Source: an uncultured bacterium (GTDB lineage Bacteria > Babelota > Babeliae > Babelales > Vermiphilaceae). From it: a stretch of DNA of 64,000 bases. Within the stretch, counting starts at the first letter, position 1. Each line of letters opens with the position of its first letter. The notes below the pieces were generated by a model that did no database searches, was not told the DNA's origin, and saw only the letters and a program-made list of their open reading frames with translations. The stretch lies in contig OY968764.1 in assembly GCA_963695335.1 (NCBI GenBank), positions 736,001-800,000 of the forward strand, written 5' to 3'. Both the position numbers and the translations under genes were made by a program. Below are positions 3 through 9,664 of the stretch, one piece after another.

Positions 3-1337
3 ACACTTGTTGCCATTCGCAAAAAATCACCGTTGTGTGTGGGGGTTGGCGATGGAGAGATGTTTATAGCTTCCGATGTGATTGCATTTGCAGGTAAAAC
101 GGATAATGTTTTCTTCTTGCCCGATGAAAGCTTTGCGTTTGTTGATAAACATGGCATTAAAGCATATAATTTTGCTGGTCAAGAAATTCCTGTCACCATA
201 GAAAAAACAAATGTCTCTTTTGATAACATTGATAAAGGTGGTCATGAACATTTTATGCTCAAAGAGATTTATGAACAAAAAAATGCGATTGCAAAAACTG
301 TTGCAGGGTTGCGATCTTTAGGTTCCTCTTTATGGGATCAACTTGGCACAACCGCCACAAAAATAGAAAATCTTAAAGGCATATCATTATTAGCATGCGG
401 AACATCATGGCATGCAGCGCGCATAGCGCAATTTTTTTTTGAATCAATCAGTAACATTCCTGTTTCTGTTCACCTTGCCTCCGAGTTTAGGCACCAGGTG
501 TTTTTCCCTGAGCAAGATACGTTGTATATTTTTATTTCACAGTCTGGTGAAACCGCCGATGTTCTTGAAGCATTACGATTAATTAATGAATATGATCTAT
601 TAACTGTTGCTCTGACGAATGTTGCAACAAGTACCGTTGTGCGAGAAGCAAAAGGGTATTTGCAAACGCATGCAGGGCCAGAGATTGCAGTTGCATCTAC
701 CAAAGCATTTTCTACGCAGCTTGCAGCACTGTATTGGTTGGCGCATCGCATTGCGCTTGAAAAGAAGGTGATTGAAGTTGCAACATTGTCTCAGGCTGAG
801 CAAGATTTATTGCATGCAGCAGATTTGATGGAAAAAAATCTAGAAAAATATCGAGATGTGATTGATACCACATATGCTCCTTTGTATGCGCAGCATAATA
901 AAGCGATGTTTTTGGGCAGATATATGAGTTATCCACTTGCAATGGAAAGTGCATTAAAAATAAAAGAAGTGGCGTATGTATTTGCAGCGAGTTACCCTGC
1001 AGGCGAACTGAAACATGGTTCTCTTGCTCTTGTTGATGACACTGTTCCTGTCTATGTTTTTTCTTATCCAGATCCAACAATTTATCAAAAGTTTGTTTCT
1101 AACGTGCATGAAGTTAAAGCACGTGGTGGGCATGTGATTGCATTTGCGTATGAAGGGCAGCATGAGTTGTGTGAATTGGCCGAAACGGCATTTGTTATTT
1201 CTGGTGAATTTCCACCATTGCTTGGTGTATTGGTAACACTCGGCGTGATGCAATATTTTGTGTACGCGGTCGCTCGCGAGCGTGGATGCCCGATCGATAA
1301 ACCGCGTAATTTAGCAAAATCCGTGACGGTTGAATAG
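3..1337 (+). CDS. glmS: Glutamine--fructose-6-phosphate aminotransferase (5' truncated by window edge)
   Basis: HFMLKEIYEQ, CGTSWHA, SQSGETAD, GPEIAVASTKAF, GELKHG and C-terminal DKPRNLAKSVTVE motifs. Confidence 0.98.
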   Translation, partial: TLVAIRKKSPLCVGVGDGEMFIASDVIAFAGKTDNVFFLPDESFAFVDKHGIKAYNFAGQEIPVTIEKTNVSFDNIDKGGHEHFMLKEIYEQKNAIAKTVAGLRSLGSSLWDQLGTTATKIENLKGISLLACGTSWHAARIAQFFFESISNIPVSVHLASEFRHQVFFPEQDTLYIFISQSGETADVLEALRLINEYDLLTVALTNVATSTVVREAKGYLQTHAGPEIAVASTKAFSTQLAALYWLAHRIALEKKVIEVATLSQAEQDLLHAADLMEKNLEKYRDVIDTTYAPLYAQHNKAMFLGRYMSYPLAMESALKIKEVAYVFAASYPAGELKHGSLALVDDTVPVYVFSYPDPTIYQKFVSNVHEVKARGGHVIAFAYEGQHELCELAETAFVISGEFPPLLGVLVTLGVMQYFVYAVARERGCPIDKPRNLAKSVTVE

Positions 1338-1340
1338 AAA

Positions 1341-1697
1341 TTACTCTTTATATGTGAGTTGTATATTGTACTTTTCTCTAAGAGATTTCTCCAGTGAGTC
1401 TAGTTTATTGTTTCGGATTCCATTATTCTGAATCTCTTTGCAAAGAGATAAATAATTTTGCATAATAATAGCACGTAACAATTCATTATTTTCTTTGAGT
1501 AAATTGTTATTTTGTTCGTTTTGTTGGATGATTTTGTGGAGTAATTCATTGTTGTTATACATTGGTGTGTTTGTGTAAAAAGATCTTATTCTTTTAATTT
1601 GTTTTATTGAAGATGCTTTGGTTAACATAGCAAGTGAGTTGTTGGTAATGGTGAGTGCGCATGCAGTTGTAACTAAAAGTGCTGTTGACTTTTTCAC
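1341..1697 (-). CDS. Small secreted coiled-coil protein, array member 1 (putative mitochondrial presequence)
   Basis: GTG start with AAAGGA RBS; signal peptide MKKSTALLVTTACALTITNNSLA; ENNELLRAIIMQN core shared with neighbours. Confidence 0.8.
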   Translation of the reverse strand: MKKSTALLVTTACALTITNNSLAMLTKASSIKQIKRIRSFYTNTPMYNNNELLHKIIQQNEQNNNLLKENNELLRAIIMQNYLSLCKEIQNNGIRNNKLDSLEKSLREKYNIQLTYKE

Positions 1698-1737
1698 AGA
1701 ATATCCTTTTGTTTAATTGTTTTTTGTTTGGCATAGT

Positions 1738-1764
1738 CTAGCAAAATCAGTTACGGTTGAATAG
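1738..1764 (+). repeat. Second copy of glmS 3' end (LAKSVTVE*)
   Basis: CTAGCAAAATCAGTTACGGTTGAATAG versus glmS 1311-1337 TTAGCAAAATCCGTGACGGTTGAATAG. Confidence 0.92.
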
Positions 1765-1779
1765 AAAATTATTTTTTTA

Positions 1780-2097
1780 ACGTGGGTTCGACTTAAGTAA
1801 AATATTATACGTTTTAATGAATTATTCCTCCGCGCTCGCCCTGAACTTGTTGAAGGGTATCTTTGAGCGCACTTCTAATAACAATAGAAAAACAACAAAG
1901 TTTCTATTCTTTAGTGATGATTAAAAAAGAAAAATATTTTTTATTAAAAAAAGAAACCGCGCTCAAAGATATCCTTTTACCCCAATTTCCATTTCATTCC
2001 AATCGGGGACCCCGTCGGAAGGAACTGAAGATGGGGAGTTGCTGACGAGCGCGTAAGATCAAATAATTTTTTAACTTTTCTTAGATTGAACTCACGT
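1780..2097 (-). mobile_element. IS982-derived MITE (318 bp, no transposase)
   Basis: Ends match the 18-bp IR of the IS982 at 37373 (15/18 and 17/18); flanked by 8-bp direct repeat TTTTTTTA (1772-1779, 2098-2105). Confidence 0.85.
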
Positions 2098-2102
2098 TTT
2101 TT

Positions 2103-2483
2103 TTATGACAATAAGGCGTTTTTATATTGCTGTAATTCTAGCAGCCTTTGCGCAAGAGCCGTCATTTCATGCTCTTCTAAGGCATATTCCATTTGCGTTC
2201 TTGGTTTGTTAGACCATTTTTCAATTTGATCAAGAACTTTATTTTGTTCAGTTATGCATCCCATGAGTAGCGTATTCTGTTTTTCTAAGATACTGTTTTT
2301 TGCTTTGATTGTATGACGATCCATGACTACTTGTACTCGTTGCATTGCTGCCAGTTCTTTGTTGTGCGTAGAAAATGAACGTATTTTTTTTGGACATAAA
2401 GCTTGTTTGATGAGCATTCCGGATGCATTGTTGATTGTTAATGCGCATGCAGTGCTGAGTAAAAGTGTGTTTATTTTTTTCAT
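2103..2483 (-). CDS. Small secreted coiled-coil protein, array member 2 (putative mitochondrial presequence)
   Basis: Signal peptide MKKINTLLLSTACALTINNASG followed by MLIKQALCPKKIRSFST. Confidence 0.8.
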   Translation of the reverse strand: MKKINTLLLSTACALTINNASGMLIKQALCPKKIRSFSTHNKELAAMQRVQVVMDRHTIKAKNSILEKQNTLLMGCITEQNKVLDQIEKWSNKPRTQMEYALEEHEMTALAQRLLELQQYKNALLS

Positions 2484-2525
2484 GAAATGTCTTTCTCTTT
2501 TTATTGTTTTTTTGTTTGGCGTAGC

Positions 2526-2552
2526 TTAGCAAAATCAGTCACGGTTGAATAG
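2526..2552 (+). repeat. Third copy of glmS 3' end (LAKSVTVE*)
   Basis: TTAGCAAAATCAGTCACGGTTGAATAG; differs from glmS only at third codon positions. Confidence 0.92.
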
Positions 2553-2556
2553 GAAT

Positions 2557-2943
2557 TTATTCCTTGGTATTAATTTTGAGGTTATATTGTTTTTCGAGTT
2601 TTTGATGCAAAGTGTTCAATGTTACATAATGATTAGCAGTTGGCATTTTAGACAAGCAATTGTGCAGGATCGAAAAGTATAGAACATTTTGTTGAAGTAG
2701 AGCGCGTAGCAATGCATTATTCTCTTTATTTTGTTCAATAATTTCGCGTAATAAATCCCTGTTATCTTTTGTTGAAATGTTAAGATCACTCTTTTGAAAT
2801 ATAAGGGGATGATCATGAGAGCTTGTTTTTGTACAGAAAGATCTTAGTTTTTTTATGTGGAAAGATTTTGTGGTTAACATACCACATGAGTTGCTGGTGA
2901 TAGCAAGTGTGCATGTCAGCAATAATTCTTTATTTATCTTCAT
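2557..2943 (-). CDS. Small secreted coiled-coil protein, array member 3
   Basis: Leader LLLTCTLAITSNSCG-M; ENNALLRALLQQN core; C-terminus similar to member 1. Confidence 0.8.
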   Translation of the reverse strand: MKINKELLLTCTLAITSNSCGMLTTKSFHIKKLRSFCTKTSSHDHPLIFQKSDLNISTKDNRDLLREIIEQNKENNALLRALLQQNVLYFSILHNCLSKMPTANHYVTLNTLHQKLEKQYNLKINTKE

Positions 2944-3308
2944 CTGAGATACTCCAAAGAAAGATCGTTGAGTCTTTCGGCCATATACGTTTCTTTTATT
3001 TTTGATGCGATTTTATATTTGTTTTCAAGTTTGTCTTTTTCAGAACATGAATAAGCAATTGCTCTTGGAGAACAAAGTTCAGTATGAAGATTTTGGTGTA
3101 GGTGGTTTAAGTAATTTTGTTGTATTATAACTCTATTTTGGCGTTTAATGTCACGTAATAATTTGTTATTTTCTTGCAATTCAGCTACAACGTCAAAAGA
3201 GACTGAATCATAATCAATTACATTTTGATCAGTCTCTTTTTTCATGGTAAATGAGTTGCTGGTAATGGTAAGTGCGCAGGTGAGTAAAAGTGCTGTTGTT
3301 TTTTTCAT
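2940..3308 (-). CDS. Small secreted coiled-coil protein, array member 4
   Basis: Leader LLLTCALTITSNSFT-M; QENNKLLRDIKRQN core; ATGA overlap with neighbours. Confidence 0.8.
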   Translation of the reverse strand: MKKTTALLLTCALTITSNSFTMKKETDQNVIDYDSVSFDVVAELQENNKLLRDIKRQNRVIIQQNYLNHLHQNLHTELCSPRAIAYSCSEKDKLENKYKIASKIKETYMAERLNDLSLEYLR

Positions 3309-3679
3309 ATCTTATCGTATTTTGTTTCGTCTTCGTACAGTTTTCTCATCATATCTCGATATGTGAATTCTGCTTTTTTTTCTGATTTTCCGTAAGCGAG
3401 GCTTCTGTGGGTTTCAACAAGGATTATTTCATGCTCAAAGCTTATATGGTTTTGACTTATAATAACTTTATTTTGGCGTTGGATATCTTTTAATAGTTTG
3501 TTGTTTTCTTGTAATAACGCGTTATTTTTTTCTTGTAATTGTCGTTTTTCGATTTTCTCCAGTTTTCTATTTTGCTTGGATATTGTTTCTTCGTGTTCCA
3601 TGCCACATGAGTTGTTGGTAATGGCAAGTGTGCATGTGAGTAAAGCTGCTGTTATTTTCTTCATAATTATCCTTTTCAT
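3305..3679 (-). CDS. Small secreted coiled-coil protein, array member 5 (start may be 3664)
   Basis: Leader ALLTCTLAITNNSCG-ME; QENNKLLKDIQRQN core. Confidence 0.8.
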   Translation of the reverse strand: MKRIIMKKITAALLTCTLAITNNSCGMEHEETISKQNRKLEKIEKRQLQEKNNALLQENNKLLKDIQRQNKVIISQNHISFEHEIILVETHRSLAYGKSEKKAEFTYRDMMRKLYEDETKYDKI

Positions 3680-4077
3680 TCTGATAACAAAATAGATGGT
3701 GTGTGTGTTATTTGATCAATCATCAATTGTGCTTCTGAATAATTGAGAAAATCTCTATTAAGAAGTTCATTGCCGTTGATGACATTAGTAGCATGATTTT
3801 GTTGTGCTTGTAACCTATTTATACTGTTTTGAATACGCAATTTTTCCAATTCAAGGTCACAAATTATCGCATCATTTCTATCATTAAGATCAGCCAATAA
3901 TTTTTTCTGTTCATGTTTTGTTGCTTTTTTAGAGTTGAATATATTTTTGGTGGGCAAGTGATAAGGTTTTATGTTTATTTGCTTTGTTGTGGATAACATT
4001 GTTTTGGGTAACATGCTTAATGAGTTGCCAGGAATAAACAGTGCACTTGTAAGTAAAACTATTATTATTGTTTTCAT
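3676..4077 (-). CDS. Small secreted protein, array member 6
   Basis: Leader MKTIIIVLLTSALFIPGNSLS-ML; basic, acid-free mature N-terminus. Confidence 0.75.
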   Translation of the reverse strand: MKTIIIVLLTSALFIPGNSLSMLPKTMLSTTKQINIKPYHLPTKNIFNSKKATKHEQKKLLADLNDRNDAIICDLELEKLRIQNSINRLQAQQNHATNVINGNELLNRDFLNYSEAQLMIDQITHTPSILLSE

Positions 4078-4523
4078 ATAATAGAGTCTTCTGTTTTACT
4101 GCTTTTTTTTGTTTGAGAGGTTTTTGGCTTTGTTTGACTTGTCATTGGAATATGAAGCGTTTCATCATCCAATTGTTTATTGTGTGATTTGTATATTTGT
4201 TCGAAGGTTACTAGAGCATCTTTAGCGTGTTGGTCTTTAGATTTTCTAGGGTCATTTTTCATGCTATCTTGATATTCGATATTTGCTTTGTTTTGCATGA
4301 GCATGGTATGCAATAAGACATTAGTTTTATTTACTGCTTTAAGGTTTTGTTCTAACAACTCATCTGTTGGATTATTGTTGCTTGATTTTCTACTGATGGT
4401 ACTGCTCGATTCTGATGTATTATTTGTGGTGAGATTAAGACATTCTTCTATATCCATTTCCATGCCTTGGATATGGTTGAAGATGAATAGAGTGGTAAGT
4501 AAAAAGAGCGTTGTTTTTTTCAT
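4074..4523 (-). CDS. Small secreted protein, array member 7
   Basis: Leader MKKTTLFLLTTLFIFNHIQG-ME; KTNVLLHTMLMQN variant of the core. Confidence 0.75.
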   Translation of the reverse strand: MKKTTLFLLTTLFIFNHIQGMEMDIEECLNLTTNNTSESSSTISRKSSNNNPTDELLEQNLKAVNKTNVLLHTMLMQNKANIEYQDSMKNDPRKSKDQHAKDALVTFEQIYKSHNKQLDDETLHIPMTSQTKPKTSQTKKSSKTEDSII

Positions 4524-4576
4524 TACCAGACCTTTTTTTATTTTTTTATCAATCATTACATGAAATTATATTTTGT

Positions 4577-4667
4577 TCAAATACTGTATTTTGACCAAAA
4601 TTAAACTGAATTTATATTGAATTTTAACCAAAAATATGTCATATTTATATTGAATTTCAACCAAAAA
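4577..4667 (+). repeat. Three 33-bp-period direct repeats upstream of the AAA ATPase
   Basis: ATTTATATTGAATTT(T/C)AACCAAAAA at 4610 and 4643; degenerate copy at about 4577. Confidence 0.75.
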
Positions 4668-4669
4668 AC

Positions 4670-6031
4670 ATGAGGATGTATGGAATGAAACGTATTATTG
4701 ATTACTATTTACATAGCTGGAAATACGATCTCCTTCGTAAGCCGTTATTGTTGCGCGGCGCCCGTCAGGTTGGCAAGACGCATGCAGCACGCATTTTGGG
4801 TAAAACATTTCCTGATTTTTTTGAAATTAACTTAGAAAGTCAACCAGCAGCGCATATTATTTTTGAAAAAGATCTGCAACCAGATAGGATCATCAGAGAG
4901 TTATCAGCATTTATGCAAAAACCAATTGTTCCTGGTAAAACATTATTATTTATTGATGAAATTCAAGCTGTTCCGCGGGCCATTTTGGCGCTGCGGTATT
5001 TTTATGAGCAAATGCCAGAATTGCATGTTATTGCCGCAGGATCGTTACTTGATTTTGCTATTGAAGAAGTTGGTATTCCTGTAGGGCGTGTTGAAAGTTT
5101 GTATATGCACCCAGTTTCATTTATTGAATTTTTATGTGCAACATCATCAGATATTTTGGTAGGAGCTTTATTTAAACATGTGAACACCAATCCAATCAGT
5201 GATATTGTACATCAACAACTGTTACAAGTTCTTGGTGAATATCTTGCCATTGGAGGGATGCCAGAAGCGGTGAAATGTTGGCAAGAAACAAAAGATGTAT
5301 TGAAATGTCCAAAAATTCATAAATCTATTCTATCTACCTATCGTCAAGATTTTGGCAAGTATACAAGAAAGCTGCAGGTAAAATATGTTGAACTTATTTT
5401 TCAATATATTCCGATGCAGCTTGGTCAAAAATTTAAATATACGGTTATAGAAGGTGAGTTTAGAAAACGTGAGCTTGCGCCAGCATTAGATCTTTTAGTA
5501 ACTGCAGGTGTTGCACAAAAAGTATATCATTCTGCTGGACAAGGAATTCCATTAGATGCGCAAGTTGATCCTCTTGATTATAAAGTTATTTTTCTTGATG
5601 TAGCACTTTCGCAACAAATGCTTGGATTGCAAACGTCTGGTTGGTACATAGACTCTTTAACTGAATTTGTGAATAAAGGGTCGTTGATTGAATCTTTTGT
5701 TGGGCAGGAAATATTGACCTATATGGACCCTTCAAGTTATCCAGCGCTGTATTACTGGCATAAGGAAACACGGGGCAGCAACGCTGAGATTGATTATTTA
5801 GTTCAACAAGAGGGGTATGTTGTACCGATCGAAGTAAAAAGTGGCGAAGGTCGTACATTAAAAAGTATGCAAACATTTCTTGAGTCGCATACCAAATCTT
5901 CATATGGCATTCGATTTTCCATACAAAATTATTCTGAATATAATAATGTGCGTTCTTATCCATTGTATGCAGTGTTTCAATTGGGTATGTGGGATAATGA
6001 ATTGCGTAAAGCGATTGAATTCCTTGTATAA
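4670..6031 (+). CDS. AAA_14/DUF4143-type ATP-binding protein
   Basis: GARQVGKT Walker A, LLFIDEIQ Walker B, GGMPE, and EIDY...PIEVKSG PD-(D/E)xK-like tail. Confidence 0.9.
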   Translation: MRMYGMKRIIDYYLHSWKYDLLRKPLLLRGARQVGKTHAARILGKTFPDFFEINLESQPAAHIIFEKDLQPDRIIRELSAFMQKPIVPGKTLLFIDEIQAVPRAILALRYFYEQMPELHVIAAGSLLDFAIEEVGIPVGRVESLYMHPVSFIEFLCATSSDILVGALFKHVNTNPISDIVHQQLLQVLGEYLAIGGMPEAVKCWQETKDVLKCPKIHKSILSTYRQDFGKYTRKLQVKYVELIFQYIPMQLGQKFKYTVIEGEFRKRELAPALDLLVTAGVAQKVYHSAGQGIPLDAQVDPLDYKVIFLDVALSQQMLGLQTSGWYIDSLTEFVNKGSLIESFVGQEILTYMDPSSYPALYYWHKETRGSNAEIDYLVQQEGYVVPIEVKSGEGRTLKSMQTFLESHTKSSYGIRFSIQNYSEYNNVRSYPLYAVFQLGMWDNELRKAIEFLV

Positions 6032-6080
6032 AATCAAATTTTTAAGATTCTTGAAAATAGGTGTTTTTTCTAATATCATG

Positions 6081-6113
6081 AGCTAAAGGTAACGCTACAT
6101 GTAACCTTTAGCT
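6081..6113. promoter_or_regulatory. Inverted-repeat operator upstream of the AbiE pair
   Basis: AGCTAAAGGT-N13-ACCTTTAGCT, ending 16 bp before the antitoxin ATG. Confidence 0.6.
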
Positions 6114-6129
6114 TACAATTGGAGAAAAA

Positions 6130-6717
6130 ATGGAAAAAAACGTTCTTTTGCAAATTTTCAAATCAAAATCGACTGTATTGTCTTTTAAAGAAATTTTGAT
6201 GGCAGCTGGCCCAATATCATCAGATCTTTTAAAGAGGCGTCTTCATTATTATGTGCAAAATGGAGAACTGTATGCAATTCGTAAAGGTTTTTATGCAAGG
6301 GATAAAAACTATGATCGGCGTGAATTTGCAACTAAATTATTTACTCCATCATATATTAGTTTTGAAACGGTTCTTGCTGAATCGGGTATAATTTTTCAAT
6401 ATTATTCTACTATTTTTGTGGCTACGTATCAGAGTAAAGATCTTGAGTGTGATGGTCAGGAATATTCATATAAAAAACTAAAAGATACCATTCTTGTTAA
6501 CACAACGGGTATTGAAAACAAGGGAGCTTATTTTATTGCTTCTCCTGAAAGAGCGTTTTTGGATGTGTTGTATCTGAATAAGAATTATTATTTTGATAAT
6601 TTGTCTGTGCTTAATTTTGATAAAATATTATCGATACTCCCTATTTATCATAATAAACGAATGGAAGAAGCTGTTTACGCACAATTGAAAGCTTTTAGAG
6701 AAGAGGAGTTGTCATGA
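6130..6717 (+). CDS. AbiEi-like type IV antitoxin / transcriptional regulator
   Basis: GELYAIRKGFY wHTH, PSYISFETVL and ASPERAFLD motifs; coupled to downstream NTase. Confidence 0.8.
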   Translation: MEKNVLLQIFKSKSTVLSFKEILMAAGPISSDLLKRRLHYYVQNGELYAIRKGFYARDKNYDRREFATKLFTPSYISFETVLAESGIIFQYYSTIFVATYQSKDLECDGQEYSYKKLKDTILVNTTGIENKGAYFIASPERAFLDVLYLNKNYYFDNLSVLNFDKILSILPIYHNKRMEEAVYAQLKAFREEELS

Positions 6718-7406
6718 CATTAGAAATAACAGCTCATAAAAATACCTTGCTGCATATTTTAAAAGATATTTATAGTGATGCAACGATGGCGCCGATCTTA
6801 GGTTTTAAGGGCGGAACTGCAGCATATCTCTTTTATGATTTACCTCGATTTTCAGTTGATTTAGATTTTGATATTTTGGATTCTCATCAAGAGGAATATG
6901 TCTTTGAGCAAATACAGAAAATTCTTGAACAATATGGCATAGTAAAAAAAGCACAGAAAAAAAGATTTAGTTTTTTCTTTTTACTTTCTTACGAAAATAA
7001 ACTTCACAATGCATATAACATTAAAGTTGAAATTAACCGTAGAAGTTTTGGATCAGAATATGAAATAAAATCATATCTTGGAATTCCTATGAAAGTTATG
7101 GTGAAACAAGATATGGCGGCACATAAATTAGTTGCTATGTTTGAACGTCTTGGTACAACTAACCGTGATATTTTTGATGTATGGTTTTTTTTGAAAAATA
7201 ATTGGCCAATTAATGAAAAAATTATTGAGTTACGAACAAACATGAGTATGAAGGAGTTTTTAAAGAAATGTATTATTGAGTTGGAAAAGATGAGTGATCG
7301 TGGCATTTTATCAGGATTGGGTGAATTGCTCGATGCGCAGCAAAAAGCGTGGGTTAAAAAACATTTGCGTGTGGAAACCATTTTTTTATTGAAGATGAAA
7401 TTGTAA
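6714..7406 (+). CDS. AbiEii-like nucleotidyltransferase toxin
   Basis: FKGGTA...LPRFSVDLDF, AHKLVA and RDIFD motifs. Confidence 0.88.
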   Translation: MTLEITAHKNTLLHILKDIYSDATMAPILGFKGGTAAYLFYDLPRFSVDLDFDILDSHQEEYVFEQIQKILEQYGIVKKAQKKRFSFFFLLSYENKLHNAYNIKVEINRRSFGSEYEIKSYLGIPMKVMVKQDMAAHKLVAMFERLGTTNRDIFDVWFFLKNNWPINEKIIELRTNMSMKEFLKKCIIELEKMSDRGILSGLGELLDAQQKAWVKKHLRVETIFLLKMKL

Positions 7407-7448: not shown

Positions 7449-7784
7449 TTATTCTTTATTCATATCACAATGTCCAAAATCTCTGTCTTTAGTTTTACCA
7501 GGCATTGCAGCGCGCTCGTCTGTTAAGTCTATGGTAACTCCAGAGAGAGATTCAAGTTTGCGTTCTAAGAATGCGTTTTCTTCTTTTAAACGTTTGTTCT
7601 CTTGCATAGTTTTGTGTAGCAATTTAGCTTGAGGAAATTCTGGAGGAAGTATTGAGTCGTAGCGTAATCGTTTTTGATTGTTTTTTTTGATGAGCTTTAG
7701 CGCAGATTTTTTTGTTGCAAGCATGCTGAATGCGGTTGTGCTGATTAAAGAGTTAAGAGCGCACAGAATTATTATTTTTTTCAT
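7449..7784 (-). CDS. Small secreted protein with basic post-signal segment and short coiled coil
   Basis: MKKIIILCALNSLISTTAFS-MLATKKSALKLIKK. Confidence 0.7.
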   Translation of the reverse strand: MKKIIILCALNSLISTTAFSMLATKKSALKLIKKNNQKRLRYDSILPPEFPQAKLLHKTMQENKRLKEENAFLERKLESLSGVTIDLTDERAAMPGKTKDRDFGHCDMNKE

Positions 7785-7811: not shown

Positions 7812-9299
7812 TTACAACTTTACTTCTTCAATATCTAGTATATCACCACTAATATAATTTTGTTTAAGATATGCAAGCGCTTCTGCGCGTGTTGTTACTA
7901 ATTTGGGAGTGTATGTTTGTGCGGTGTGTAACATGCTGATGAGTGAAATACAATCACGCAGCTGATTATCGTTTTGGAGCATCTCTTTTGCGCGATCATA
8001 GCGTTTACTACTTTTTTTCTTTGTTTCTGGAGCATGTACTTCTTTTTTTTCTTTGGCAAGCGGTATACCTTCTTTAGTAACTTTTATAAAGTTATCTAAT
8101 GTTTCTTCTCGGCCATAATTTTTAGTAAACCATTGTACCTGTTCTGTTGGTGGAGTGGTACGTTCAATCATAAAATCTGGTTCAATGCCAGTGCCCTGGA
8201 TGGTACTGTTATCAGGTAAAAAGTAAAGGCATGTGGTAATTTTGAGCGCGCAGTTGTTACTTATGGGTATAACTTCTTGCACCGATCCTTTTCCAAAAGT
8301 TTTTGTTCCTACTAAAAACACCAAATAATCATTGGTTGTATCAGAATTAATTTTCAAGCAACCAGCTAAAATTTCTCCTGCTGAAGCAGTGTAATTATTG
8401 ATGAGAATAAAAATAGGAAGTGTATTTTTTGCAACGGGATTTCTGCGTGTAGCATAGCGTTCAATTTCTTTGCCATGTTTATCTTTGGTCAGTGCAACAA
8501 GGCTGCCTTTTTTAAGAAAGAGCCCAGCAATATCAATTGCAGCATTGAGTAATCCTCCAGAATTATTGCGTAGGTCAAGAATAAGACCTTTAGCATGTTG
8601 TTCTTGTGATTTTTTAAGTAAAGCTTCAATCTGTTTGGTTGCAGCTTCAGTGAACATACTCAGAGAAATGTAAGCAATGTTGTGACTTTTAATATGAAAA
8701 CTCAGTGAGTGTTGTTCTTTAACAACATCGCGCACAATATCGAATGGAAGTAAATCAGGGCTATTTTCGCGCATTATTTTTACTTTGACCGTGGAATGGC
8801 GCTCCCCTTTGAGTTTGGAAACTATTTTTTCTGTTGAAAGCCCTTCAAGAATTTCACCATCAATTTCTACAATTTTATCCATCGGTTGAATGCCCACTTT
8901 ATCAGCTGGACCATCAGGAACAGTATCAACAATAGTCAGATGTTTATCTTTTGTCTTGCGCATATTATCAATGACAATGCCAACACCAAAAAATTCACCG
9001 GAAGTCATTTCGAGCATTTCATGATACGTCTTAGGGTCTAAAAAATTGGAATGAGCATCTAATGAATTAATAAAGCCATCAATGGCTTTGATCATATTTT
9101 CTTTGGGGTCTGTGATAGCGTAATGTTTTTTATGCGCAATATCCATTGCTTGTGCAAATGTGCGTGACCAATTAAAGATTGTTTCATCAAATGTTTCGTC
9201 TGATACTTGTGCGGATGTTTTGATATTTTTTGTTTCAGCAACTGGTGATGAAAAATAGCATGTTATAGCACAGAATAGTGCAAGTGATTTTTTTTTCAT
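7812..9299 (-). CDS. ctpA: S41 family carboxy-terminal processing protease
   Basis: PDZ (GVGIV), LDLRNNSGG, TASAGE and TFGKGSVQ motifs; start reassigned to MKKKSLA. Confidence 0.93.
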   Translation of the reverse strand: MKKKSLALFCAITCYFSSPVAETKNIKTSAQVSDETFDETIFNWSRTFAQAMDIAHKKHYAITDPKENMIKAIDGFINSLDAHSNFLDPKTYHEMLEMTSGEFFGVGIVIDNMRKTKDKHLTIVDTVPDGPADKVGIQPMDKIVEIDGEILEGLSTEKIVSKLKGERHSTVKVKIMRENSPDLLPFDIVRDVVKEQHSLSFHIKSHNIAYISLSMFTEAATKQIEALLKKSQEQHAKGLILDLRNNSGGLLNAAIDIAGLFLKKGSLVALTKDKHGKEIERYATRRNPVAKNTLPIFILINNYTASAGEILAGCLKINSDTTNDYLVFLVGTKTFGKGSVQEVIPISNNCALKITTCLYFLPDNSTIQGTGIEPDFMIERTTPPTEQVQWFTKNYGREETLDNFIKVTKEGIPLAKEKKEVHAPETKKKSSKRYDRAKEMLQNDNQLRDCISLISMLHTAQTYTPKLVTTRAEALAYLKQNYISGDILDIEEVKL

Positions 9300-9382
9300 T
9301 TTGTCCTCTTTTTGTTGATAGTAAACGTAAATATTGCAACGTAAGTCAATATATGACCAATATGATTGGAAAGGAGGTTTGT

Positions 9383-9664
9383 ATGATACGTATAAAGAAA
9401 ATAGTACTGAAAGTTTTATTGGTATGCGAGATGGCAGGATTTGGGCACATTTATTTTTTTGGTAGTAATGGTATTGCATCATTGCAAGCGCAAAAAAAAG
9501 TTGTTGAAGATTTAAAAAGCTATATTCTGGTCCTTGATACAGAAATTACGCAGTTGGAAAAAGAAATGTATGCGTGGCAACATGATGATTTTTATAAAGA
9601 AAAAGTTGCGCGTGAACAGCTGCAGATGGCACGCAAAGGTGATGAACTGTTTTATATAGGATAA
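9383..9664 (+). CDS. Septum formation initiator (FtsB/DivIC family)
   Basis: AAGGAGGT RBS; TM segment, FFGSNG, coiled coil, EKVAREQLQMARKGD. Confidence 0.82.
   Translation: MIRIKKIVLKVLLVCEMAGFGHIYFFGSNGIASLQAQKKVVEDLKSYILVLDTEITQLEKEMYAWQHDDFYKEKVAREQLQMARKGDELFYIG

What the first reader, a model, noticed from the sequence alone, without database searches (positions are those of the whole stretch)
1311..2552. glmS 3' end occurs three times, with only synonymous changes, and delimits effector cassettes
Seen: LAKSVTVE* is encoded at 1311-1337 (TTA GCA AAA TCC GTG ACG GTT GAA TAG), 1738-1764 (CTA..TCA GTT..) and 2526-2552 (TTA..TCA GTC..). Every difference is synonymous. Copies 1 and 3 are followed within 3-4 nt by the stop codon of a convergent effector gene; copy 2 is too, within about 15 nt, once the MITE is removed. 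Known: this stretch is the TnsD recognition sequence of attTn7, but Tn7 does not duplicate it, whereas integrase-type insertion into a gene's 3' end does. Inference: single-gene cassettes were added one after another at the glmS tail, each displacing the previous functional end. This would be an integron-like effector accretion site with no adjacent integrase.
Basis: partly seen in the sequence, partly recalled or inferred. Interest (0 to 1): 0.78.

Follow-up and report, generated by a model that had tools for sequence, protein, structure and literature searches.

The report
Displaced gene tails mark gene capture
In this protist-parasitic bacterium, new genes have been slotted in right behind essential genes such as glmS, leaving a spare copy of the essential gene's last few codons behind, most likely through ordinary DNA uptake and recombination rather than a dedicated integrase.

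Summary
The three glmS-tail copies are real, at the stated coordinates, and unique in the genome. Soil contigs from other runs match copy 2 or 3 exactly. But glmS is not special. The same scar (gene, cargo, spare 3' end) follows 9 protein genes in this genome, among them polA, dnaA, atpG and bamA, and 0 of 35 tRNA/tmRNA genes. Independent glmS scars occur in relatives, with different lengths (27-84 nt); one filled/empty pair shows a foreign gene inserted and the old tail pushed away and decaying. Pooled differences are mostly synonymous (67 of 99), so displacement is supported. At glmS itself the synonymous pattern is weak: it depends on the boundary, and copies 2 and 3 share one junction, so they were not two independent displacements. 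No integrase trace lies in 17 cargos and no TnsD was found; ComEC, DprA and a ComM-like gene are present. Best reading: homology-anchored insertion-duplication in Babeliales, with the spare tail reused as a second homology arm. Several neighbouring genes carry a signal peptide followed by a mitochondrial-presequence-like segment. New variant of a known kind.

The parts
3..1337 (+). 3' part of glmS (SIS domains), intact; full ORF at G000:735451-737337
1304..1337 (+). tail copy 1, the working glmS end (core 27 nt at 1311-1337)
1341..1697 (-). gene A, 118 aa: signal peptide, then Met plus a basic, acid-free presequence-like segment, then a predicted coiled-coil-like region (by eye); closest relative G008 gene 1
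1698..1730 (-). leader of gene A; reads like the last codons of a gene-G-type ORF (…KDIL*, as in G005, where that gene overlaps the start of the gene next to glmS)
   Evidence: 0 of 500 shuffles reached the score against the G005 sequence
1731..1764 (+). tail copy 2, displaced glmS end (core 1738-1764)
1777..2098 (.). MITE, an internally deleted copy of the IS110-family element at G000:1353983-1355422; holds two dispersed palindromic repeats (about 1830-1870 and 1975-2036, up to about 80 and 58 overlapping genome hits)
2103..2483 (-). gene B, 126 aa, same N-terminal design; orthologue of G008 gene 2 (53% identity, tree support 100/99)
2484..2518 (-). leader of gene B, same junction as the leader of A (31 of 42 identical over the region up to the 27-nt core)
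2519..2552 (+). tail copy 3, displaced glmS end (core 2526-2552), abutting the resident array
2557..4556 (-). resident array of five related small signal-peptide genes C (2557-2943), D (2940-3308), E (3305-3679), F (3676-4077), G (4074-4556), stop/start overlapping, no tails between them; C, D and G match genes 1, 2 and 4 of metagenome locus L074
4670..7784 (.). rest of the variable interval: AAA_14-DUF4143 gene (4670-6031 +), AbiEi-like/AbiEii pair (6130-7406 +), small gene H (7449-7784 -)
7812..9482 (-). ctpA (S41 peptidase), the conserved far boundary of the interval

Best explanation
The spare tails are scars of homology-anchored insertion-duplication, a genome-wide process in this Babeliales genus. 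DNA from a relative, carrying a core gene and whatever lies just behind it, pairs by RecA with the resident copy of that gene (long anchor). Its foreign end is then joined illegitimately to the resident strand a short way before the stop codon. The result is: working gene ending in the donor's tail, cargo, the recipient's old tail, the old neighbour (inferred; works like homology-facilitated illegitimate recombination, HFIR). At this glmS locus such a join was made once, between the last codons of a gene-G-type ORF and position -34/-27 of glmS. After that the spare tail gave a second, short homology arm, so a unit 'gene + leader + tail' could be doubled or added by ordinary unequal recombination. 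That gave cassettes A and B in front of the resident array C-G. An IS110-derived MITE later landed behind copy 2. Shown: the copies, the shared junction, the genome-wide scars, empty sites in relatives, the synonymous excess, the uptake genes. Inferred: natural transformation as the route, the joining chemistry, the order of events.
For: Nine protein genes in G000 have a spare 3' end 0.4-3.1 kb downstream that does not end an ORF: glmS, polA, dnaA, atpG, a secretin, an Omp85/BamA gene, a Glycos_transf_4 (mraY-like) gene, a 478-aa gene and a putative ABC permease. Among single-copy genes of 200 aa or more, the last 30 nt recur downstream in 5 of 446, mid-gene 30-mers in 0 of 450, and windows 60-150 nt before the stop in 0 of 453 each. 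Empty sites: polA directly precedes the same neighbour in G005 and G002, while G000, G004 and G006 each have different cargo and a tail of 30, 62 and 35 nt. L077 versus L081: a 427-nt foreign insert with an unrelated 84-aa ORF separates glmS from its old neighbour (88% identical to L077); the displaced 84-nt tail keeps two L077 codon states and is decaying. Boundaries at glmS differ: -34, -66, -58, -75, -84, -27; a displaced atpG end of about 345 nt lies in G001. 67 of 99 differences are synonymous over 17 pairs; 40 of 60 over the 10 G000 pairs, which were found by DNA likeness only (bamA 11 of 12, dnaA 7 of 7), against 40-50% expected if a duplicate simply decayed (P about 0.006 to 3e-5 for G000). 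0 of 35 tRNA/tmRNA genes have a displaced end and 0 of 17 cargos match the genome's four tyrosine recombinases. ComEC-family gene in 11 of 11 genus genomes; DprA and a ComM-like gene in G000. A and B are closer to G008 genes than to each other or to C. The 95-nt spacer of G009 matches the DNA that directly follows glmS in G010 (score 64, best of 1000 shuffles 38).
Against: No transfer event was caught and no near-identical strains were available; reads covered 5-8 of 30 bins and showed no joint between tails. In the passages read, HFIR is described as anchoring and replacing, not as duplicating the anchor's end, so the duplicating join is my inference. Scars sit at 3' ends; no housekeeping gene showed a displaced 5' end, which integrases explain more naturally. 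Three glmS boundaries lie within -58 to -75, and later deletion could blur a fixed crossover. All three G000 tails share the TAG stop, seen in only 2 of 16 relatives, so they may be native rather than donor-derived. At atpG the cargo is a paralogue of the next gene, which fits plain tandem duplication. ComEC and DprA are common in bacteria (controls rang in 10 and 11 of 14 genomes) and do not prove competence. The pooled pairs are not independent and G088 was found by a codon-degenerate pattern.
Confidence: 0.6

Rival explanations
1. Integrase-driven accretion (CIME-like): phages or integrative elements that target the 3' ends of glmS, polA, dnaA and other genes came and went; each left attR and a little cargo, and later elements integrated in tandem.
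For: Scars are confined to 3' ends. Synonymous excess is expected of an attP-borne tail. Copies 2 and 3 share a junction, as repeated use of one att site would give. Integrase-less CIMEs and gene-less microCIMEs in tandem at the 3' ends of rpmG, rpsI, fda and rplL are described in streptococci (PMC7563491, passages); the 95-nt and 42-nt spacers of G009 and G088 resemble them. G000 holds two tyrosine recombinases besides the Xer-like pair.
Against: Needs at least nine target specificities in a 1.37-Mb genome yet no tRNA or tmRNA scar (0 of 35); no recombinase trace in 17 cargos; boundaries differ between genomes at both glmS and polA; junction flanks printed share no motif by eye; cargo often looks like the DNA that follows the same gene in a relative.
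Confidence: 0.2
2. Plain tandem duplication of 'tail + neighbouring gene + a little of the next gene', amplified to three units by unequal crossing-over, with the genes then diverging fast or being swapped for other alleles.
For: The unit boundaries match the G005/G002 arrangement (tail, gene 1, end of gene G); the shared junction and the shared AAT to AGY state of copies 2 and 3 fit one origin; A, B and C are one family; atpG cargo is a paralogue of its neighbour.
Against: A and B are only 31% identical while the tails are 25 of 27 identical; B is the orthologue of G008 gene 2 and A is closest to G008 gene 1, so the genes are older than the tails. At polA, dnaA, the secretin and in L081 the cargo is unrelated to the neighbour. 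Pure decay predicts fewer synonymous differences than seen. It may still describe the second step at this locus.
Confidence: 0.15
3. The tail copies are kept because they do a job, as promoter or 3' UTR of the convergent genes or as a binding site (TnsD-like decoy).
For: Identity falls from the tail (25 of 27) through the leader (31 of 42) to the ORFs (42 of 66, then 36 of 60). By eye the reverse strand has TG-n-TAnnnT about 30-40 nt before the starts of A and B.
Against: The promoter scan lists no site there and finds 14 sites against 15.7 in shuffles; folds are not above chance (z -0.9 to 1.7); spare tails in G009 and L081 gather nonsense and missense changes; no TnsD or TniQ found.
Confidence: 0.05

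Closest known systems
Homology-facilitated illegitimate recombination (HFIR) and displacement arrays of Vibrio cholerae T6SS effector-immunity modules (PMC5361080, passages; PMC2884548 and PMC6382021, passages)
   Same: A conserved upstream gene anchors incoming DNA, new modules push old DNA downstream, breakpoints vary, no integrase is known, and the arrays look integron-like.
   Different: Here the anchors are unrelated housekeeping genes across the genome, the anchor's own 3' end is duplicated rather than replaced, and there are no immunity genes.
CIMEs and microCIMEs accreted in tandem at protein-gene 3' ends in streptococci (PMC7563491, passages)
   Same: Integrase-less cargo between repeats of a protein gene's 3' end, in tandem, sometimes with no gene at all.
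   Different: CIMEs have att sites fixed by a cognate ICE/IME integrase at a few genes and at tRNAs; here boundaries vary, nine genes are hit, no tRNA is, and no integrase was found at any site.
Integron cassette arrays (defining features recalled)
   Same: Single-gene units in a row, apparently added at one end.
   Different: No intI next to the array, no attC-type hairpin above chance, and the repeat is coding sequence of a host gene.
Tn7 attTn7 at glmS (PMC11406308, passages)
   Same: The repeated stretch is the glmS 3' coding end that TnsD recognises.
   Different: Tn7 makes a 5-bp target duplication and needs TnsD/TniQ; neither was found. The overlap is a by-product of how conserved, and so how visible, this tail is.

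Membership tests
Integron | Integron integrase next to the array | tested here: not met
   Four tyrosine recombinases in G000, nearest 62 kb away and Xer-like by context; none beside the array
Integron | attC sites: strong imperfect hairpins ending each cassette | tested here: not met
   Junction folds no better than shuffles (z -0.9 and -0.4); not searched with an attC model
Integrase-targeted island / CIME | Direct repeat of the target gene's 3' end on both sides of the cargo | tested here: met
Integrase-targeted island / CIME | Fixed crossover position at a given target gene | tested here: inconclusive
   glmS boundaries -27 to -84 and polA -30, -35, -62; later deletion could blur a fixed site
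Integrase-targeted island / CIME | Cognate integrase in or beside at least some elements | tested here: not met
   0 of 17 cargos with a match (best E 0.78) to the four G000 recombinases; serine recombinases not searched
Integrase-targeted island / CIME | Excision as a circle | tested here: inconclusive
   No joint between tails in 4 runs, but coverage was 5-8 of 30 bins, contigs only
Tn7-like element | tnsD/tniQ target selector | tested here: not met
   TniQ 0 of 11 genus genomes (control silent, so weak); TnsD 0 in G000 (control rang once below cut-off)
Tn7-like element | 5-bp target duplication, not a copy of the recognition sequence | tested here: not met
   Duplication is 27-34 nt of coding sequence; Tn7 rule from PMC11406308
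HFIR product | Long homologous anchor on one side, variable illegitimate joint on the other | tested here: met
   Gene body intact; joints vary between genomes
HFIR product | Microhomology of a few bases at the joint (feature recalled) | tested here: inconclusive
   The 7 nt at 1731-1737 and 2519-2525 fit both glmS and a G-type gene end in part; donors are unknown
HFIR product | Competence and RecA dependence | not testable with these tools
   ComEC, DprA and ComM-like genes present; function not shown
Mitochondrial presequence-bearing protein | Basic, acid-free N-terminus with an Arg-x-Phe/Tyr processing motif (rule recalled) | tested here: met
   First gene after glmS: 3-5 K/R and 0-1 D/E in the first 20 mature residues in 12 of 12; motif in 7 of 12, shuffle mean 0.28, maximum 3; pattern chosen after seeing the sequences, genes related
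Mitochondrial presequence-bearing protein | Import into mitochondria | not testable with these tools
   Needs a localisation test

The most novel reading that the evidence does not exclude
Babeliales run an integrase-free cassette system: transformation leaves short spare tails of essential genes, and these act as reusable second homology arms, so that 'gene + tail' units spread, stack and drop out behind many core genes. At glmS the units carry secreted proteins whose mature N-terminus mimics a mitochondrial presequence, so the locus would be a swap site for host-mitochondrion-targeted effectors.
Probability: 0.25. Interest if true: 0.75.

Novelty: new variant of a known kind. Interest (0 to 1): 0.5.

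Why it matters
It offers a readable footprint of how small-genome protist parasites without many mobile elements gain secreted proteins and toxin-antitoxin modules. Displaced tails date and orient each gain, so the share of gene gain by homology-anchored capture, proposed for T6SS arrays but rarely visible, becomes countable in genomes. The presequence-like N-termini give testable candidates for the mitochondrial remodelling seen with Chromulinavorax (PMC6561590, passages). It is not an integron and not Tn7-related.

Tried and rejected
Search of JGI metagenomes for the copy-2/3 junction: 0 matches. No RNA holder listed; four DNA runs held 5-10% of the words; laid contigs showed no cassette loss or circle, with low cover. 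Tn7 link rejected. Promoter and hairpin roles of the tails not above chance. ESM Atlas gave no usable hit for gene A; Pfam and NCBIfam gave none above cut-off for A-G. Order-wide pattern search: 11 of 187 genomes with a match had two or more; 4 are adjacent tails (G000, G009, G213, G088); G246-G249 and G198 have a second full glmS, G160 has the match on two near-identical contigs, G083 looks like a contig overlap. Control in the phylum of G261 (a Bacteroidales genome): 0 of 197 genomes with a match had a copy within 6 kb; 7 had two matches, far apart or on other contigs. 4 of 187 against 0 of 197 is too few to call a lineage difference. DNA-level scan of 103 loci: 100 had a glmS end, 87 had 2 kb or more downstream, 4 had a copy (window, G009, G213, L081); G088 was missed because all 9 codons differ. 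dnaA: no spare tail in the 9 congeners with the gene end in view. A stricter presequence motif was found in 0 of 21 basic-class secreted proteins genome-wide, so the motif signal is limited to the glmS-side family. G007 gave no glmS match. Literature searches listed no paper on displaced core-gene tails or presequence-bearing proteins in Dependentiae; the library lacks most subscription papers, the original HFIR paper tried was not held, and no supplements were read.
Full report
1. Observation. The window is G000:736001-800000. A close relative (G002) is titled Candidatus Babeliales, so the host is taken to be a Dependentiae bacterium. Short contigs of other soil runs match 1735-1885 and 2489-2639 exactly. 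The MITE at 1777-2098 is an internally deleted copy of an IS110-family element elsewhere in the genome; without it, copy 2 lies about 16 nt from the stop of gene B.

2. The synonymous argument at this locus is weak. The likeness runs 34 nt, not 27; with that boundary copy 2 has 3 synonymous and 2 non-synonymous differences and copy 3 has 3 and 1. In the 27-nt core, TCA is the state in 8 of 9 congeners, so TCC most likely arose in the working gene. That leaves as few as two changes on the spare copies; two synonymous changes have a chance of 0.06-0.25.

3. Anatomy. Copies 2 and 3 share their left flank, which is the leader of minus-strand genes A and B. The leader of A reads as the end of a gene-G-type ORF: in G005 that ORF ends …KDIL* on the start codon of the gene beside glmS, and 0 of 500 shuffles reached the match (part of the likeness may be the ribosome-binding site, and the same test for B was weaker, 0.018 among many comparisons). 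So one junction was made and is present twice. The genes are older than the tails: A and B are 31% identical, B groups with G008 gene 2 (100/99), A is closest to G008 gene 1 (weak support), and C, D and G match the array of closer relatives such as L074 (27 rows, none left out of the tree). Recent tandem duplication of C cannot give A and B.

4. Relatives at glmS. The interval between glmS and ctpA differs in all 9 congeners with a glmS match; 8 have one tail (G004 and G002 with only 654 and 2087 nt in view) and G009 has three. A codon pattern over 261 genomes of the order matched 187, with adjacent extra tails in G000, G009, G213 and G088. A DNA scan of 100 glmS ends added L081. L077 and L081 form an empty/filled pair: in L081 a 427-nt insert with an unrelated 84-aa ORF lies between glmS and its old neighbour, and the displaced 84-nt tail keeps two codon states of L077 while gathering missense changes. 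The 95-nt spacer of G009 matches the DNA that directly follows glmS in G010, upstream of its AbiEi-like gene. Boundaries range from -27 to -84. A Bacteroidota control gave 0 of 197; the counts are too small to claim a lineage difference.

5. The scar is genome-wide. In G000 a spare 3' end that ends no ORF follows polA, dnaA, atpG, a secretin, an Omp85/BamA gene, a Glycos_transf_4 gene, a 478-aa gene and a putative ABC permease, besides glmS. Cargo is toxin-antitoxin pairs, WD40, ankyrin, GNAT and unnamed secreted proteins, 0.4-3.1 kb. Among single-copy genes, terminal 30-mers recur downstream in 5 of 446 (one of the five is a pair of neighbouring ORF ends), mid-gene 30-mers in 0 of 450; upstream copies of gene starts were 1 of 439, a signal-peptide paralogue. 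At polA, G005 and G002 are empty, and G000, G004 and G006 have separate scars of 30, 62 and 35 nt; G009 has a weak fourth. G001 has a displaced atpG end of about 345 nt around 3.4 kb of cargo, read across contig ends. Over 17 pairs, 67 of 99 differences are synonymous; over the 10 G000 pairs, 40 of 60. This exceeds the 40-50% expected from duplication followed by decay, so much of the divergence arose while both ends were working, in different lineages. Allele replacement of the working gene after a duplication could give the same excess.

6. Mechanism. None of 35 tRNA/tmRNA genes has a displaced end within 60 kb, none of 17 cargos matches the genome's four tyrosine recombinases, and none of these lies at the array. 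TniQ and TnsD were not found, with weak controls. ComEC (11 of 11), DprA and a ComM-like gene are present. The best fit is anchoring by homology in the gene body with an illegitimate join just before the resident stop, as proposed for Vibrio T6SS arrays (PMC5361080, passages) and described for competent bacteria (PMC2884548 and PMC6382021, passages). The duplication of the anchor's end is my inference and is not described in those passages. Once a spare tail exists it is a second homology arm, which explains a second cassette with the same junction (inference). The main rival is decayed integrase islands (CIMEs; PMC7563491, passages), which explain the 3' bias better but the spread of targets and boundaries worse.

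7. The cargo. A heuristic found 283 of 1258 ORFs with a signal-peptide-like start followed by Met; 134 begin Met-Glu and 21 are basic and acid-free. The first gene after glmS is of the basic type in 12 of 12 genomes and loci examined, and 7 of 12 carry an Arg-x-aromatic-x-Ser/Thr motif (shuffle mean 0.28). This resembles a mitochondrial presequence (rule recalled). Chromulinavorax remodels the host mitochondrion and 44% of its proteins have signal peptides (PMC6561590, passages). 'Effector' stays a plausible, untested label.

8. Verdict. Observation confirmed; interpretation partly supported. A real accretion site, but one of many in the genome, most likely fed by recombination after DNA uptake and not by an integrase or Tn7. 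New variant of a known kind; interest 0.5.

Noticed in passing
window 1341-1697, 2103-2483, 2557-2943, 3676-4077, 7449-7784 and relatives: Signal peptide followed by Met and a basic, acid-free stretch, often ending in an Arg-x-Phe/Tyr motif, like a mitochondrial presequence; most other secreted proteins of the genome begin Met-Glu instead.
   Followed up: partly
G000:1353983-1355422 (L201) and window 1777-2098: IS110-family element with terminal inverted repeats and a derived MITE; two dispersed palindromic repeat families with dozens of genome copies sit inside the MITE.
   Followed up: partly
G000, e.g. 89328/90378, 90392/92182, 747928/748752 (window 11928/12752), 935650/936944, 1016585/1018162, 1337606/1339652: Terminator-like hairpins repeated on both sides of one or a few secreted-protein genes; possibly the intergenic form of the same insertion-duplication.
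   Followed up: no
L052 (G088), 69 nt after glmS: A second LAKSVTVE* with all 9 codons changed synonymously (10 differences) after only 42 nt of spacer.
   Followed up: partly
G000:249965-252005: A 65-nt repeat that looks like the 3' domains of a group II intron (recalled) flanks a 381-aa ORF and a small secreted gene.
   Followed up: no
G000:890291-894760: 408-aa integrase next to a 90-aa and a 781-aa ORF, perhaps a small satellite-like element; a 128-nt near-perfect tandem repeat follows it.
   Followed up: no
G000:497277-524000: Cluster of toxin-antitoxin-like pairs and repeated intergenic segments, several in decayed copies.
   Followed up: no
window 4590-4670 and L035: Three or four spaced copies of a TTG/TCG-ACCAAAA-like motif precede the AAA_14-DUF4143 gene in both G000 and G004, probably an operator.
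   Followed up: no
window 6064-6130: Inverted repeat before the AbiEi-like gene, also seen in G002, G009 and G010; likely the AbiE operator.
   Followed up: partly
G246, G247, G248, G249, G198: Two full-length glmS genes per genome.
   Followed up: no
G000:999238-999388: Perfect 75-nt tandem duplication spanning the stop codon of an 1801-aa gene.
   Followed up: no
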